Origin: a virus
Taxonomy: Duplodnaviria > Heunggongvirae > Uroviricota > Caudoviricetes
Strand: one strand, 5' to 3'
Length of the DNA: 64,000 bases
IMG/VR virus record: IMGVR_UViG_3300010885_072628
Positions 37,295-57,789 of this stretch are shown piece by piece. The translations under genes were made by a program, and so were the position numbers. The notes under the pieces are model-generated. The model saw only the letters and a list, made by a program, of their open reading frames with translations. It was not told the origin of the DNA and searched no databases. Each line of letters opens with the position of its first letter. Within the stretch, counting starts at the first letter, position 1.

Positions 37295-37804
37295 TTGAGA
37301 AAGACTGCGAAAATGAAAACAAAAATTACTAAAGAACTTGTAGAATCACTTTCCAGTGATACTATCGCTAAAAAAGAATACGATAAAATTATTAAAAGTA
37401 TTGAAAAGAAAGTCGAAGAAATATGGCTTTTTATTTGCAAAGAAGCTTGGATGGACTGCGAATGGTATGCATTCAGGAATGACCTTGAACTGGGTCATGG
37501 CGATGGATCGACTGGCGGCTGTTTCGATCCAAGAGCAGATAAACAATTTATTGAAATTTTAGGCGAAAAGAAAGACGTAGATTATTGCCCATACAACGAA
37601 GGATTTCCCACCAAGCTGCTCTGGACAGAAAACTGGAAGGAAATAGTTATCAAAGAAATAGAAAAAGCAGAGAAAAAACAAATAATTGAGATAGAAAAAG
37701 CAGAGAAAAAACAAACAACCGATAGTTCTAAAAAAGAAATCATCCAAAAAAAAATTAAATCCAAACTAACAAAGGAAGAATTGAAACACATTCAATTTAA
37801 ATGA
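37295..37804 (+). CDS. hypothetical protein
   Basis: 169-aa ORF. The minus-strand ORFs here were rejected. Confidence 0.35.
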   Translation: MRKTAKMKTKITKELVESLSSDTIAKKEYDKIIKSIEKKVEEIWLFICKEAWMDCEWYAFRNDLELGHGDGSTGGCFDPRADKQFIEILGEKKDVDYCPYNEGFPTKLLWTENWKEIVIKEIEKAEKKQIIEIEKAEKKQTTDSSKKEIIQKKIKSKLTKEELKHIQFK

Positions 37805-41544: not shown

Positions 41545-42025
41545 AAACGCCCCAGATTATGATTCCTCAAAAGACACTCTTCTTCACATAAAAAGAGTTT
41601 CTGAACTACTCCACAGTGTGATTTCAGACTTTACTGAAAGAGCATCAAATCATGACAACTCTAAGTTGGACAGTCCAGAAAAAGAACTTTTTGATCAATA
41701 CACTCCTTTGTTGAAATCAACCACATACGGTAGCGAAGAATATAATAACTATCTTTCTCAACTTAAAGTTGGTTTGGATCATCATTACAAAAACAACTCT
41801 CACCATCCAGAGCATTATGATCTCGGAATTCAAGGAATGAATTTATTCGATCTTTTAGAAATGTTAGTTGATTGGAAAGCGGCAACCGAACGACATGCCG
41901 ATGGAAGTATCGAAAAATCTCTCGAAATCAATAAGACTAGATTCAACATATCATCAGAGTTATCAGCGATATTAAAAAACACAGTTGCTTATATGAGCAA
42001 AAAGAAAGAGTGGAGCAAAAAGTGA
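41537..42025 (+). CDS. putative HD-domain-like metal-dependent hydrolase
   Basis: HIKRV...ASNHDNSK...DHHYKNNSHHPEHY His/Asp-rich motifs. Confidence 0.3.
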   Translation: MNKNAPDYDSSKDTLLHIKRVSELLHSVISDFTERASNHDNSKLDSPEKELFDQYTPLLKSTTYGSEEYNNYLSQLKVGLDHHYKNNSHHPEHYDLGIQGMNLFDLLEMLVDWKAATERHADGSIEKSLEINKTRFNISSELSAILKNTVAYMSKKKEWSKK

Positions 42026-45111: not shown

Positions 45112-45624
45112 ATGAACGAACAAAAACTAGTAGAACTAGCAAGAGAAATTGAAGATACCGCAAATTCTTATTATAATGAATCAAATCCAGATGTTCCAAG
45201 AATACTGGATGAGATAGTAATGAGTTCTCGTGCAATGATTGATATGCTGCAAGAAAAACTTCATTTTAGTTTGCGGGACGCTACCGGTAGGCTGACGCAA
45301 AAAGAAGCAGAAGAATTTGAAAAAATTATTTCTACTACGAAACCTTACGAATTTCCTAAAGATTATGTAGCACCAAAAGAAATTTCTTCCAAAGAGTTCC
45401 TTGAACGAATAAAAGAAGAGCTACCAACAATGGGTAACTTCACACCTTATTCTTATTACAACGAATCCATGGATGAAATACAGGTTTATTTTAAAGATGA
45501 AAGCTGTTACACCAAGCCCGTAAATGATAAATTAGAATTATATTTATCATATGATAATGATGTGATTGGAGTGAAGGTTCTTGGGGTTAAAAAATTAATT
45601 CAAGATAAAGGAAAATTCAAATGA
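45112..45624 (+). CDS. hypothetical protein
   Basis: 170-aa ORF. Confidence 0.35.
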   Translation: MNEQKLVELAREIEDTANSYYNESNPDVPRILDEIVMSSRAMIDMLQEKLHFSLRDATGRLTQKEAEEFEKIISTTKPYEFPKDYVAPKEISSKEFLERIKEELPTMGNFTPYSYYNESMDEIQVYFKDESCYTKPVNDKLELYLSYDNDVIGVKVLGVKKLIQDKGKFK

Positions 45625-46013
45625 CAACGCTCGTAAATTTCACAAAAAAGTATATTACACAAAAAATTAGTTCAATTAGTTTAGATCATTTTGATGGACA
45701 AAGTTTCGAGAGTATTATTTCTCAACTAAATGAAAAATCTAAGAAGGCAGAGTCTGAATTCCCTTCGATGAAGCCACCGACAATGAAACATATTTATTTA
45801 GAGAAAATATATGATAGGCATAATGAAACTTATTATTTCGATGTAATGATTGAAAGACTAGAAAACGATAAAGAGTATGATAATAGAATTAAAGAAGAAA
45901 AAAAAGAACAAGAAAGAAAAGCAAAAATGGCGGCTAGACAAGAAACAAAAAAAGAAAAGTTTGAAGAAAAAGAGTACCGAAGACTAAAAAAGAAATACGA
46001 GAAAAAAGCATGA
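45621..46013 (+). CDS. cassette-family protein (type A N-domain) with a conserved K/E-rich C-terminal tail ...RLKKKYEKKA
   Basis: ERLENDKEYDNRIKEEKK...EYRRLKKKYEKKA. 3' junction ctaaaaaagaaatacgagaaaaaagcATGA. Confidence 0.4.
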   Translation: MTTLVNFTKKYITQKISSISLDHFDGQSFESIISQLNEKSKKAESEFPSMKPPTMKHIYLEKIYDRHNETYYFDVMIERLENDKEYDNRIKEEKKEQERKAKMAARQETKKEKFEEKEYRRLKKKYEKKA

Positions 46014-46425
46014 TATGCAACAAATGCAATAAGGGAGAAATTCAAACATCAACAGCAGGTGATATTGATTTTTTTGGTTGCAACAAATGCGATAATGGCT
46101 GGATCGTGGAAAATGGAAAGAAATATATTAGACAAGGGCTTGATGCTTTTTCTTTTAATGAGTCATCTGATTTAGGCACATTTACTTTAGATGATGCAAT
46201 TAATTATCTGGAAAAAATAAAATCTCTTCACCCAGAAGCGAATCAATTTTATTTAAGAGTAGAAAAAAATCATTATGACGATCTGAATTGTTTTGTTGTA
46301 GAGATGGAAAGGTTAGAAACAGACAAAGAGTACAGTAAGAGAATCAAATTGGAAGAAAAAAACAAGAAGCTATTGAAAGAAAAGAACTCGCAAGATTGAA
46401 AAAGAAATACGAGAAAAAATCATGA
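46010..46425 (+). CDS. cassette-family protein (zinc-ribbon N-domain, type A tail). Needs a -1 frameshift at A_AAA_AAC (46357-46363) to reach the conserved tail. Zero-frame product ends at 46399.
   Basis: Frame 0: ...ETDKEYSKRIKLEEKNKKLLKEKNSQD*. Frame -1 continues ...KKQEAIERKELARLKKKYEKKS*, ending in the same ATGA junction (46422-46425) as its paralogs. Confidence 0.4.
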
Positions 46426-46652
46426 CAAATAAAGAGTTTGATTTATATACCTCCCATATTTGGAATACACATTTTTTTTATGAAGAATTTGATTATCCTT
46501 GCTATTCGGGATTAAATGATAAGTTCCAAGGTTCTTCTGAAGCATGTGATGCTATGCAAAGAATCTGGGGCGTTACATATAAAACCAAAGAACAGTTTCA
46601 GAATGCTTACAAAACTCAACTTAAAATATTAGGAGAAGATATAAATTCATGA
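46422..46652 (+). CDS. hypothetical protein
   Basis: 76-aa ORF. Confidence 0.3.
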   Translation: MTNKEFDLYTSHIWNTHFFYEEFDYPCYSGLNDKFQGSSEACDAMQRIWGVTYKTKEQFQNAYKTQLKILGEDINS

Positions 46653-47860: not shown

Positions 47861-48039
47861 AAGTTAAAAGCTTTAAAGTTTTAAGCCTCAACGAAACATT
47901 GTCTAGAGAAGAATTAGACAAACTGTGGAAGGAAGAATTGTGGGTTGCAAACAGACCAAGAACATGGTATGAATGGTTCTGCTGGACTTTTGACGGTAAA
48001 TATAATATTTTTAATTGCAGCGGAGAAAATCATGGCTAA
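47845..48039 (+). CDS. hypothetical small protein
   Basis: 64-aa ORF. Confidence 0.25.
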   Translation: MGNKMKVKSFKVLSLNETLSREELDKLWKEELWVANRPRTWYEWFCWTFDGKYNIFNCSGENHG

Positions 48040-48391
48040 AAAAGCAAAAGCAAAAGAGACGAAACTTCCCAAAAATAGACAATACATAATTTTGAAACAT
48101 GATGGCTACGGTGTTTTAGAACCTTTTACTTCTCTAGGCATTTCTGGAGCTTGTATTTATGATGGAAAGGACATCACATCTATAGAGGACGCCATTTGTG
48201 GGGCGTATGAGGAAATCGGCGGAGAAATTGAAGAACTTGAAGAATGGGATGGATCCGACATCGTAATTTTATCTGTGGAAAACGAACTCGAATATATCAA
48301 GTCTACTATTAAAAAATATCATTCAGATGTCGAGACAAAAGAAAAAAGAGAGTTGGCACGACTAAAAAAGAAATATGAAGGTAAATCATGA
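48032..48391 (+). CDS. cassette-family protein (type B N-domain, MAKKAKAKETKLPK...) with the ELARLKKKYEGKS tail
   Basis: ATG at 48032 after GGAG. Tandem paralog of 48388..48753. Confidence 0.4.
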   Translation: MAKKAKAKETKLPKNRQYIILKHDGYGVLEPFTSLGISGACIYDGKDITSIEDAICGAYEEIGGEIEELEEWDGSDIVILSVENELEYIKSTIKKYHSDVETKEKRELARLKKKYEGKS

Positions 48392-48753
48392 ATAAAAAAG
48401 CAAAAGCAAAAGAGACGAAACTTCCTAAAGATGGAAGATACATAGTCCTAAGAGATGACGGGGGTGGTTTGAGCCTTTTCGATTATTCGTCAGGGGCAAT
48501 TTACATCTATGATGGAACGGAAGAATTAGAGGACGCAATTTGTGGTGCTTACGAGGAAATCTATGGGGAAATGAGTGAAGAATTTGATGATGACGATATA
48601 TACAGCGAGAATTACCTAGATCAAATCTGCATTTTTTCTTTGGAAGATAAACCCGAATACATCAAGTCTACTCTTAAAAAATATCATTCAGATATCGAGA
48701 CAAAAGAAAAAACAGAGTTGGCACGACTAAAAAAGAAATATGAGAAAAATTAA
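48388..48753 (+). CDS. cassette-family protein (type B). Tandem duplicate of 48032..48391.
   Basis: MNKKAKAKETKLPKDGRY...ICGAYEEIYGE...YIKSTLKKYHSDIETKEKTELARLKKKYEKN. Confidence 0.4.
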   Translation: MNKKAKAKETKLPKDGRYIVLRDDGGGLSLFDYSSGAIYIYDGTEELEDAICGAYEEIYGEMSEEFDDDDIYSENYLDQICIFSLEDKPEYIKSTLKKYHSDIETKEKTELARLKKKYEKN

Positions 48754-49185: not shown

Positions 49186-49578
49186 ATGACAAAGAAATAT
49201 ATCACAGAGAATATTAGAACTATTGATTTAGATGATATGATTCACACCGACATAGATTCCTTTATTACTATGTTTGCTGAAATCAAGAAAGAGTATCCCA
49301 ATGATAAGATAGCTGTTTCTTTCAACAAACATGAAAAGCTGGATTATAATGATTACGATACTTGCTATGTTTGTGAATGTACCCACACCCTTGACTTTAC
49401 TCTTAATAGGATAGAAACCGATAAAGAATATGACAATAGAATAAATAGATATAAGAACCAAAAAAAGGCAAGACAAAAAGCTAAAGAAGAAAAAATAGAG
49501 AAAAAGAGACTAGAAAAAGAAGCTAATGATAAAAAAGAATATCTTAGATTAAAAAAAATATATGAGGGAAAACCATGA
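49186..49578 (+). CDS. cassette-family protein (type A) with the EYLRLKKIYEGKP tail
   Basis: NRIETDKEYDNRINRYKNQKK... Confidence 0.4.
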   Translation: MTKKYITENIRTIDLDDMIHTDIDSFITMFAEIKKEYPNDKIAVSFNKHEKLDYNDYDTCYVCECTHTLDFTLNRIETDKEYDNRINRYKNQKKARQKAKEEKIEKKRLEKEANDKKEYLRLKKIYEGKP

Positions 49579-57559: not shown

Positions 57560-57789
57560 ACATTTGTGCAACTACTGGCAAGACCATATATTCTGACGAG
57601 AAGCAAGCTGCTAAAGGTCTAGACAGAATGGTTGAACGAGTTCCAGATTATGATGGCGAGCCTTATTATTGTTTGTATTGTGCCAACTATCATTTCGGAA
57701 GAAGAAAAGATAGAGTCAAAAAAAAAAAGAAAAAGAACTTAGATGTTTGGGTTCTTAGAAAAACAAATTTCTCCTTCTTCATCTACTGA
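57556..57789 (+). CDS. hypothetical small protein
   Basis: 77-aa ORF. Contains a homopolymer run (A10GA5). Confidence 0.25.
   Translation: MNICATTGKTIYSDEKQAAKGLDRMVERVPDYDGEPYYCLYCANYHFGRRKDRVKKKKKKNLDVWVLRKTNFSFFIY

What the first reader, a model, noticed from the sequence alone, without database searches (positions are those of the whole stretch)
46357..46425. A_AAA_AAC slippery heptamer in cassette gene 46010: a -1 frameshift restores the family-conserved tail and the ATGA junction
In frame 0 the gene ends ...KLLKEKNSQD* at 46399, lacking the tail shared by its four paralogs. Slipping -1 on A_AAA_AAC (46357-46363) yields ...KKQEAIERKELARLKKKYEKKS*. A_AAA_AAC is a well-known efficient -1 slippery sequence (astrovirus type). 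The -1 product ends exactly in the conserved ...gaaatacgagaaaaaatcATGA junction overlapping the next start (46422). This is therefore either a programmed frameshift producing two isoforms, or a homopolymer (A7) sequencing or indel error, or a nascent pseudogene.
Basis: seen in the sequence. Interest (0 to 1): 0.6.

Follow-up and report, generated by a model that had tools for sequence, protein, structure and literature searches.

The report
Frameshift-truncated phage gene with relic tail
A small accessory gene of a large uncultured phage has been cut off from its family's conserved C-terminal tail by a real one-base frame break in a run of A's, and relatives in which the stranded tail has decayed show that this is an ordinary truncating mutation and not a programmed ribosomal frameshift.

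Summary
Gene 46010..46399 stops at 46397-99. An in-frame A_AAA_AAC (A7 run, 46356-62) sits 34 nt upstream. The -1 frame, or an eighth A, gives ...EEKKQEAIERKELARLKKKYEKKS*, ending in the ATGA junction with gene 46422. That tail is a real protein-level family motif.

The programmed-frameshift reading is not supported:
- There is no downstream structure (z = +0.31), no correctly spaced SD-like element and no Rfam hit.
- The window holds 86 in-frame A_AAA_AAN heptamers.
- The heptamer phase follows automatically from losing one A in a Lys-codon run.
- Three relatives' contigs (L009, L010, L016) share the frame-0 stop, but their tail carries a -1-frame TAA, a 1-nt deletion and GAG->TAG. The truncated protein therefore persists without access to the tail.

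Sequencing error is very unlikely. Six independent contigs show the same broken frame, five of them across the A-run (A7 or A10), and no intact allele exists among about 15 billion proteins.

The region is in flux: cassettes are lost exactly between ATGA junctions, there is a crossover in the linker, and at least one other family member (probably two) has lost its tail through a linker lesion.

Best reading (about 0.68): a fixed one-base loss, or an out-of-register crossover, in the A-rich linker, giving a tail-less protein. Incidental slippage may yield traces of full-length product. Interest is low.

The parts
46010..46399 (+). Gene g46010, frame-0 ORF of 129 aa. It has an N-terminal CxxC...CxxC zinc ribbon, the family body (...ERLETDKEYSKRIK) and a short out-of-family end, NKKLLKEKNSQD*.
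   Evidence: The identical protein is found on 3 contigs.
46356..46362 (+). A7 run, the most probable site of the lesion (ancestral A8, GAA GAA AAA AAA CAA = EEKKQ). Relatives have A10 at the homologous place.
   Evidence: HMM scoring favours repair here.
46357..46363 (+).
   Evidence: It is one of 12 in-frame A_AAA_AAC and 86 in-frame A_AAA_AAN heptamers in the window.
46339..46425 (+). Open -1 frame, bounded by TAA 46336-38 and TGA 46423-25. From 46363 it encodes the stranded family tail QEAIERKELARLKKKYEKKS*.
46381..46384 (+). Alternative -1 shift-prone tetramer A_AAG, or alternative lesion site (A4 run 46380-83). Repair here gives ...KNKKLLKEKELARLKKKYEKKS.
   Evidence: Sequence. The family HMM scores this repair 58.5 bits, against 64.6 for the A-run. 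The linker of P0035 resembles the frame-0 reading.
46397..46399 (+). Frame-0 stop TGA, 22 nt upstream of the next start. It is conserved in all relatives.
46402..46425 (+). Conserved tail-end 18-mer AAGAAATACGAGAAAAAA plus TCATGA, the cassette junction. The 18-mer is identical to 45990-46007 at the end of g45621.
   Evidence: The junction is used as a cassette boundary in L005.
46422..46652 (+). Downstream gene g46422 (76 aa). Its start overlaps the stop of the ancestral (tail) frame as ATGA.
   Evidence: Orthologues occur in several other contexts.
45621..46013 (+). Intact paralogue g45621 (130 aa) with a contiguous linker (A8 run, EEKKEQE) and the tail ...KEYRRLKKKYEKKA.
   Evidence: AlphaFold2 model.
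48032..48391 (+). Intact paralogue (119 aa from ATG 48032) with the tail ...RELARLKKKYEGKS.
   Evidence: P0005.
48388..48753 (+). Intact paralogue (121 aa) with the tail ...TELARLKKKYEKN.
   Evidence: P0006.
49186..49578 (+). Intact paralogue g49186 (130 aa) with the tail ...KEYLRLKKIYEGKP.
   Evidence: P0002.

Best explanation
g46010 belongs to a family of small phage proteins: a beta-alpha-beta-beta body, then one long C-terminal helix with a Lys/Glu-rich linker that ends in the motif E(L/Y)xRLKKKYExK.

In an ancestor of all sampled alleles the reading frame was broken inside the A-rich linker. The most likely cause is loss of one A from a run of Lys codons (A8 -> A7 here, A11 -> A10 in relatives). 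An out-of-register crossover in the linker is also possible.

Translation now ends 12 codons later at TGA 46397-99. The product is a 129-aa protein that lacks the tail. The last 62 nt (46364-46425) survive as an untranslated relic, which still provides the ATGA cassette junction and the 5' flank of g46422.

RNA-polymerase or ribosome slippage on the A-run will unavoidably make traces of full-length protein. Nothing indicates that this is selected.

Shown: the frame break, its presence in independent assemblies, the homology of the -1 frame to the family tail, and decay of that tail in one lineage.

Inferred: the exact lesion site and its age, and that the truncated protein still functions.
For: 1. 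Ancestral contiguity.
- 28 of 33 family proteins carry the tail in frame: 27 by the motif search, plus P0036 with a variant tail, judged by eye.
- The repaired g46010 matches phrog_25568 and phrog_14651 across the break.
- The repair gains 8-18 bits against a family HMM.

2. The break is real.
- JGI contig Ga0304729_1008206 is 100% identical over 4,561 nt, including the A7 run.
- L001, L009, L010 and L016, from four other samples, have the same frame-0 stop with an A10 run.
- The 90%-identity protein cluster has only truncated members, and no intact orthologue was found in 5.8 billion clusters or 1.84 billion representatives.
- 70 other homopolymers of 7 or more lie inside intact ORFs.

3. The tail is not maintained. 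In L009, L010 and L016 the -1 frame has CAA->TAA, a 1-nt deletion in TTGAAAAAG, and GAG->TAG, while the 137-aa frame-0 ORF is intact.

4. No recoding signal. Folding of 46364-46460 gives MFE -5.2 kcal/mol, z = +0.31. There is no Rfam match. The only SD-like sequence is GGAAG, directly adjacent to the heptamer and so wrongly spaced.

5. The heptamer is uninformative. There are 86 in-frame A_AAA_AAN heptamers. Deleting one A from gAA AAA AAA C automatically yields A_AAA_AAC in phase.

6. The locus is decaying and recombining.
- L005 and L006 lack g46010 exactly from ATGA to ATGA and keep only a decayed relic of g45621.
- L001 is a mosaic with its crossover in the linker: 0/726 differences upstream against 7/139 downstream, p = 2e-6.
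- L011 has a 44-nt insertion in the linker of the g49186 orthologue that strands an intact tail.
- P0029 is a g45621 orthologue with an aberrant end.
Against: - The tail in the window and in L001 is perfectly intact, motif and ATGA junction included.
- Both allele types keep an in-phase slippery run, and the 24-nt linker difference between them is a multiple of three. That preserves the 0 / -1 relation, which is expected about 1/3 of the time per event under neutrality.
- IS1 shows that A_AAA_AAC can be used for low-level -1 frameshifting in bacteria without a stimulator (PMC4066793).
- The higher divergence of the L009-type tail (5/52 against 6/324 in the body, p = 0.01) is confounded by mosaicism. 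It does not differ from the flanking genes (p = 0.16).
- Only two independent tail lineages exist, so 'lost in one, used in the other' cannot be excluded.
Confidence: 0.68

Rival explanations
1. Functional recoding. In the window and L001 lineage a minority of ribosomes slip -1 on A_AAA_AAC (IS1-like, without a stimulator), or RNA polymerase adds an A in the run. This produces a selected minor tail-bearing isoform beside the major tail-less one.
For: - An in-frame slippery heptamer sits at the right place in both allele types, and the -1 tail and ATGA junction are intact.
- The linker indel is a multiple of 3.
- No intact allele has been sampled, so the split state is the fixed state.
- IS1 is a proven A_AAA_AAC case without a stimulator (PMC4066793).
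- An A10 run in relatives is long enough for substantial transcriptional slippage; runs of 9 are documented (PMC5009743).
Against: - There is no stimulatory structure or correctly spaced SD-like element.
- A_AAA_AAC is much weaker than A_AAA_AAG in E. coli (PMC5009743), and stimulator-less heptamers give at most about 0.5% (PMC4066793).
- The heptamer is abundant in this genome and is an automatic by-product of a 1-nt deletion in Lys codons.
- The tail is destroyed by three lesions in L009, L010 and L016 while the frame-0 ORF persists.
- Other family members are contiguous.
Confidence: 0.17
2. DNA-level phase variation. The A-run is a hypermutable tract that switches between A7 and A8 (A10 and A11) in the phage population, turning the tail on and off. 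The assemblies show only the majority state.
For: - Homopolymers of 7-10 A have high indel rates (general knowledge).
- The run length differs between allele types, A7 against A10.
- The tail is intact in two allele types.
Against: - All contigs that cover the run, from at least 5 samples, show the same 'off' phase.
- In the L009 type, switching could not restore the tail.
- 64 other A-runs of 7 or more in the window show no such pattern.
Confidence: 0.07
3. Sequencing or assembly error at the homopolymer. The true genome has A8 and a contiguous 138-aa gene.
For: One extra A restores a perfect family member. Homopolymers are error-prone on some sequencing platforms.
Against: - An independent JGI contig is 100% identical, and three contigs carry the identical 129-aa protein.
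- Relatives assembled with other assemblers, judging by their contig names (k141_ and NODE_), share the frame break.
- Their tail has decayed, which an artefact cannot explain.
- 70 other long homopolymers lie inside intact ORFs.
Confidence: 0.03

Closest known systems
IS1 insA-insB' -1 frameshift at A_AAA_AAC (InsAB' transposase)
   Same: It uses the same heptamer in a bacterial translation system, has no established downstream stimulator, works at low efficiency, and has a 0-frame stop shortly after the site (PMC4066793, PMC5009743).
   Different: In IS1 the -1 ORF encodes the indispensable catalytic domain and is conserved in all copies, with reduced synonymous variability at the site. Here the -1 segment is a 21-codon tail that has decayed in one lineage, and all other family members are contiguous.
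E. coli dnaX (A_AAA_AAG) and the phage tail-assembly-chaperone G/GT programmed -1 frameshifts
   Same: A Lys-codon slippery heptamer inside a phage or bacterial gene yields two C-terminally different products.
   Different: Those sites have flanking stimulators (an SD-like element and a hairpin in dnaX) and/or deep conservation of the two-ORF arrangement across distant phages. Neither feature is found here.
Frameshifted genes at poly(A) tracts partly rescued by transcriptional slippage (Buchnera/Blochmannia endosymbionts) and the 'savior indel' with low-level compensatory frameshifting (HSV thymidine kinase G7 run)
   Same: A genomic indel in a homopolymer breaks the frame, and slippage by polymerase or ribosome on the same run restores a small fraction of full-length product (PMC5009743). 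This is the best mechanistic analogue for what must happen here, especially on the A10 alleles.
   Different: In those cases the full-length product is known to be needed. Here the tail has been lost altogether in one lineage, and the function of the protein is unknown.
Ordinary homopolymer frameshift truncation with a relic downstream frame, in a hyperplastic accessory-gene region of a large phage
   Same: The ancestral frame is contiguous in paralogues. The lesion maps to an A-rich run. The stranded segment decays. Neighbouring cassettes are deleted, duplicated or disrupted in relatives.
   Different: Nothing material. The only unusual aspect is that the stranded tail doubles as the recombination and ATGA junction of the cassette array.

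Membership tests
Programmed -1 ribosomal frameshift site | In-frame X_XXY_YYZ slippery heptamer in the overlap of the 0 and -1 ORFs | tested here: met
   gaA AAA AAC at 46357-63, in phase with ATG 46010. The overlap runs 46339-46399. The feature is not discriminating, because the window's ORFs hold 86 in-frame A_AAA_AAN heptamers.
Programmed -1 ribosomal frameshift site | Stimulatory element: a hairpin or pseudoknot 5-9 nt downstream, or an SD-like sequence 10-14 nt upstream | tested here: not met
   46364-46460 folds at -5.2 kcal/mol, z = +0.31, and 114 of 200 shuffles fold as well. No Rfam match at E <= 1. The upstream sequence GTACAGTAAGAGAATCAAATTGGAAG has only GGAAG, directly adjacent to the heptamer.
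Programmed -1 ribosomal frameshift site | The trans-frame ORF and the shift site are conserved in relatives | tested here: not met
   The slippery run is kept (A10C), but in L009, L010 and L016 the -1 frame has TAA, a 1-nt deletion and TAG. It is intact only in the window type and in L001, whose tail is window-derived.
Programmed -1 ribosomal frameshift site | A trans-frame protein is produced at a defined ratio | not testable with these tools
   This needs mass spectrometry or a reporter assay.
Transcriptional slippage site | Homopolymeric A or T run of about 9 or more in the coding strand | tested here: not met
   The window has A7. Relatives L001, L009, L010 and L016 have A10, so the criterion is met there, but in three of those four the tail is dead.
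Homopolymer frameshift truncation with a relic frame (pseudogenised segment) | Homologues and paralogues have a single contiguous frame across the break | tested here: met
   28 of 33 family proteins carry the tail in frame. The exceptions are the three g46010 alleles, P0020 and P0029.
Homopolymer frameshift truncation with a relic frame (pseudogenised segment) | The break is genuine, that is, reproduced in independent assemblies | tested here: met
   six independent contigs from at least five samples, with at least two assemblers judging by contig names. No read-level data were available.
Homopolymer frameshift truncation with a relic frame (pseudogenised segment) | The stranded downstream frame accumulates inactivating changes | tested here: met
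   Three inactivating lesions in the L009-type tail. None has appeared yet in the window-type tail.
Homopolymer frameshift truncation with a relic frame (pseudogenised segment) | The lesion maps to the homopolymer | tested here: inconclusive
   Repair at the A-run scores 6-7 bits better than repair at the A4 run in both allele types. The linker is low-complexity, and an out-of-register crossover is equally compatible.
RLETDKEY...RLKKKYE small phage protein family (phrog_25568 / phrog_14651) | Body motif R(L/I)E(T/N)DKEYxxRI followed by a K/E-rich helix ending in E(L/Y)xRLKKKYExK | tested here: met
   The body motif is in frame 0 (ERLETDKEYSKRIK). The tail is present only in the -1 frame.

The most novel reading that the evidence does not exclude
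The window and L001 alleles deliberately keep a stimulator-less, IS1-like A_AAA_AAC / poly-A recoding site. A few ribosomes or transcripts then append the family's conserved RLKKKYE helix end. This would give a fixed low ratio of tail-bearing to tail-less protein from one accessory cassette of a jumbo-type phage, with loss of the arrangement in the L009 lineage.
Probability: 0.15. Interest if true: 0.5.

Novelty: new member of a known kind. Interest (0 to 1): 0.2.

Why it matters
On the best reading this is a routine annotation matter. The gene should be annotated as the 129-aa frame-0 product with a note that the C-terminal family motif is out of frame. It should not be annotated as a programmed frameshift.

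The case also gives a general caution for AT-rich phage genomes. In-phase A_AAA_AAN heptamers are so common (86 in 64 kb) that they say little. A one-base deletion in a Lys-codon run automatically creates such a heptamer, followed by a restored homologous frame, so that pattern alone is not evidence of recoding.

The more interesting by-product is the picture of the cassette array. The conserved tail plus ATGA acts as the joint at which cassettes are lost, and crossovers fall in the adjoining A-rich linker.

Tried and rejected
- DNA and tblastn searches of INPHARED phages found nothing.
- IMG/VR scans by peptide pattern and by an exact 31-mer found nothing.
- The one metagenome-contig hit, L002, ends before the shift site.
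- Pfam gave no family for any paralogue.
- A PDB sequence search and Foldseek against the PDB gave no significant match, and BFVD gave only uncharacterised phage proteins. The function of the protein stays unknown.
- I tried to show accelerated decay of the L009-type tail from divergence rates. Tail against body is significant (p = 0.01), but tail against flanking genes is not (p = 0.16), because the region is mosaic. I therefore rely on the nature of the changes (stop, indel, stop) and not on their number.
- I considered a lesion at the A4 run 46380-83 (A_AAG), because the linker of P0035 resembles the frame-0 reading. The family HMM prefers the A-run by 6-7 bits, so this remains only a minor alternative.
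- The DNA of P0029 could not be retrieved, and P0047 is not on record.
- The long -1 ORF after the A_AAA_AAC in gene 41537 is simply the next gene, joined by a GTGA overlap.

Full report
**1. The observation**

The sequence is as described.
- Gene g46010 runs from ATG 46010 to TGA 46397-99 and encodes 129 aa ending ...RIKLEEKNKKLLKEKNSQD*.
- The A-run is A7 (46356-46362), followed by C.
- The codons are gaA AAA AAC, so A_AAA_AAC (46357-63) is in the canonical X_XXY_YYZ phase.
- The -1 frame is open from 46339 (after TAA 46336-38) to TGA 46423-25. After a shift at the heptamer it reads ...LEEKKQEAIERKELARLKKKYEKKS*. Its stop overlaps ATG 46422 as ATGA. Adding one A to the run gives the same protein.

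The tail is real family sequence.
- A degenerate pattern for its end occurs five times in the window (45990, 46402, 48368, 48733, 49555), against 0.58 expected by chance.
- The four other copies close intact ORFs.
- The copies differ at synonymous positions, for example GCAAGATTG against GCACGACTA, and TAC against TAT. The motif E(L/Y)xRLKKKYExK is therefore conserved at the protein level.

**2. Context**

The window is AT-rich (35.6% GC) and densely coding, mostly on one strand. It carries phage-type genes: nicotinamide phosphoribosyltransferase, a clamp-loader-like AAA+ protein and a tail-fibre-like giant protein. Related contigs reach 329,799 nt. No deposited phage matches.

g46010 belongs to a family of proteins of about 100-130 aa known only from metagenomic phage contigs; one 218-aa member is a fusion of two copies.
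- It matches phrog_25568 and phrog_14651, both of unknown function, and has no Pfam match.
- An AlphaFold2 model of the intact neighbour g45621 (mean pLDDT 80.5) shows a beta-alpha-beta-beta body followed by a single 47-residue helix. The helix starts at DKEY and ends with the tail, with pLDDT 88-96.
- The only fold match is to uncharacterised jumbo-phage proteins.
- Of 33 family proteins collected, 28 carry the tail in frame. The exceptions are the three alleles of g46010 itself, P0020 and P0029.
- The repaired g46010 aligns with PHROG profiles across the break. Against a family HMM built without it, the repaired form gains 8 bits here and 18 bits in the relative.

The ancestral gene was therefore contiguous, and the present frame break is derived.

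**3. Is it an artefact?**

No.
- JGI contig Ga0304729_1008206 is 100% identical to the window over 4,561 nt, including the A7 run. The identical 129-aa protein is recorded on three contigs.
- Four further contigs from other samples carry the orthologue with the same frame-0 stop: L001, L009, L010 and L016. Their contig names point to MEGAHIT- and SPAdes-style assemblies.
- These four have a linker 24 nt longer and an A10 run, GAA AAA AAA AAC, again in phase.
- No contiguous allele exists in the 90% cluster, among 5.8 billion clusters, or among 1.84 billion representatives.
- In the window, 70 of 87 homopolymers of 7 or more lie inside intact ORFs, so the assembly is not error-ridden.

**4. Is it a programmed frameshift?**

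The usual supports are absent.
- The 97 nt downstream fold no better than shuffled sequence: -5.2 kcal/mol, z = +0.31.
- Rfam finds nothing.
- There is no SD-like element at the spacing that stimulates -1 shifting.
- The heptamer is not distinctive. The window's ORFs contain 221 in-frame X_XXY_YYZ heptamers, of which 86 are A_AAA_AAN and 12 are A_AAA_AAC.
- Removing one A from gAA AAA AAA Cxx necessarily leaves gaA AAA AAC in phase. An in-frame slippery site in exactly the right place is therefore what a plain deletion in Lys codons produces.

The literature points the same way.
- A_AAA_AAC is among the best sites for mammalian ribosomes, but in E. coli it is far weaker than A_AAA_AAG (PMC5009743).
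- In E. coli, heptamers without a stimulator give only 2-10 times a background of 0.055% (PMC4066793).
- IS1 does use A_AAA_AAC without a known stimulator (PMC4066793). Low-level shifting here is therefore plausible, but plausibility is not evidence of selection.

**5. The relatives decide it**

L009, L010 and L016 come from three samples. All keep the intact 137-aa frame-0 ORF, the A10 run and the frame-0 stop. Their -1 frame is broken three times:
- CAA->TAA just upstream of EAIE;
- a 1-nt deletion in TTGAAAAAG;
- GAG->TAG in the KKYE motif.

The C->T that makes the -1 TAA is synonymous in frame 0 (AAC->AAT). In that lineage the tail cannot be reached by any shift, yet the gene persists. So the tail-less protein is the product that is kept.

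I do not rely on the rate argument. The tail (5/52 differences) is more diverged than the body (6/324, p = 0.01) but not more than the neighbouring genes (p = 0.16), because the region is mosaic.

**6. The locus is in flux**

This fits a mutational origin.
- L001 is identical to L009 for 726 nt upstream and to the window from the linker onward, with 0/726 against 7/139 differences (p = 2e-6). It is a recombinant whose crossover lies in the A-rich linker.
- L005 and L006, syntenic relatives, lack g46010 exactly from ATGA to ATGA. They retain only the first codons and a decayed tail of g45621.
- L011 has a 44-nt insertion or duplication in the linker of the g49186 orthologue. It strands a still-perfect tail.
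- P0029 is a g45621 orthologue with an aberrant end.
- L006 has a tandem fusion of two cassettes.
- Upstream of g46422 orthologues in other contexts there is sometimes a further-degraded tail relic.

The tail plus ATGA thus serves as the joint at which cassettes are lost, and crossovers fall in the adjoining linker. This may help the relic to persist, or be refreshed, at the DNA level.

**7. Mechanism proposed**

A one-base loss in the Lys-codon A-run (A8 -> A7), or an out-of-register crossover in the linker, became fixed before the sampled alleles diverged. Translation now stops at 46397-99, replacing the last 21 residues of the C-terminal helix by 12 unrelated ones. The body stays an intact ORF in all lineages, with 6 nucleotide differences in 324 nt and no stop or indel, so the truncated protein may still work. 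The data are too few to test that.

Slippage on A7, and more so on A10, must yield traces of full-length protein. I regard that as incidental.

The lesion site itself is inferred. Repair at the A-run fits the family better than repair at the A4 run 46380-83 (64.6 against 58.5 bits here, 73.7 against 66.4 in L001), but the linker is low-complexity.

**8. Comparison with known systems**

- The closest mechanistic analogues are homopolymer indels partly rescued by slippage: poly(A) tracts in endosymbionts, and the herpesvirus thymidine kinase G-run 'savior indel' (PMC5009743).
- Among programmed sites, the closest is the IS1 A_AAA_AAC (PMC4066793).
- The locus fails two defining features of a programmed site that could be tested: a stimulator, and conservation of the trans-frame ORF. 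I do not file it as one.

**9. Verdict**

- Observation: confirmed.
- Sequencing error: refuted for practical purposes.
- Programmed frameshift: not supported, with a residual probability of about 0.15-0.2.
- Best reading: a frameshift truncation with a relic tail in a recombining cassette array (about 0.68).
- Interest: low.

Noticed in passing
L005 7397-7482 (and L006), compared with window 45618-46425: Syntenic relatives lack g46010 exactly from one ATGA junction to the next. They keep only the first codons plus a decayed tail of g45621 (ATGACAGAAACG...TAA...aaagaaaagtttgaagaaaaagagtGccgaagactaaaaaTaaatacgagaaaaaagcATGA). The conserved tail/ATGA appears to be the recombination joint of a cassette array.
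   Followed up: partly
L001 1-865, compared with L009 and window 45605-46448: L001 is a mosaic. It is identical to L009 for 726 nt upstream and identical to the window from the end of the linker onward (0/726 against 7/139 differences, p = 2e-6). The crossover lies in the A-rich linker of g46010.
   Followed up: yes
L011 455-498 (orthologue of window gene 49186..49578): A 44-nt insertion with a duplicated AGAGAAAAAGAAACTAGAA lies in the K/E linker. It throws the still-perfect tail out of frame (protein P0020). This is a second, independent tail-stranding event in the family. P0029, a g45621 orthologue, also has an aberrant end, but its DNA could not be fetched.
   Followed up: partly
L006 8799-9455 (protein P0003, 218 aa): Two tandem copies of the 48032-type cassette are fused into one ORF in one relative. 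The otherwise near-identical L005 has a single 118-aa copy.
   Followed up: no
window 46010-46100; protein P0031: g46010 has an N-terminal CNKC...CNKC zinc ribbon that the other paralogues lack. The same ribbon heads a 100-aa metagenomic protein (P0031) whose C-terminal part is different, which suggests domain shuffling.
   Followed up: no
L012 1-5231, L013, L014, L015: The orthologue of g46422 also occurs in other phage contexts, next to RtcB, ThyX (Thy1) and a TROVE/Ro60-vWA protein. In L012 it is preceded by a terminator-like hairpin and a further-degraded tail relic (agaaataaagaaatcATGA).
   Followed up: no
window 57718-57728 and 37746-37754: These are the longest homopolymers in the window. 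The A11 run lies outside the ORFs of my crude ORF set. The A9 run lies inside ORF 37295..37804, 50 nt before its stop; there the -1 frame closes after one codon, so no stranded frame is evident.
   Followed up: partly
window 42010-42025: The ORF listed from GTG 42010 more likely starts at GTG 42022, which overlaps the TGA of gene 41537 as GTGA. The long -1 ORF after the in-frame A_AAA_AAC of gene 41537 is just this next gene.
   Followed up: partly
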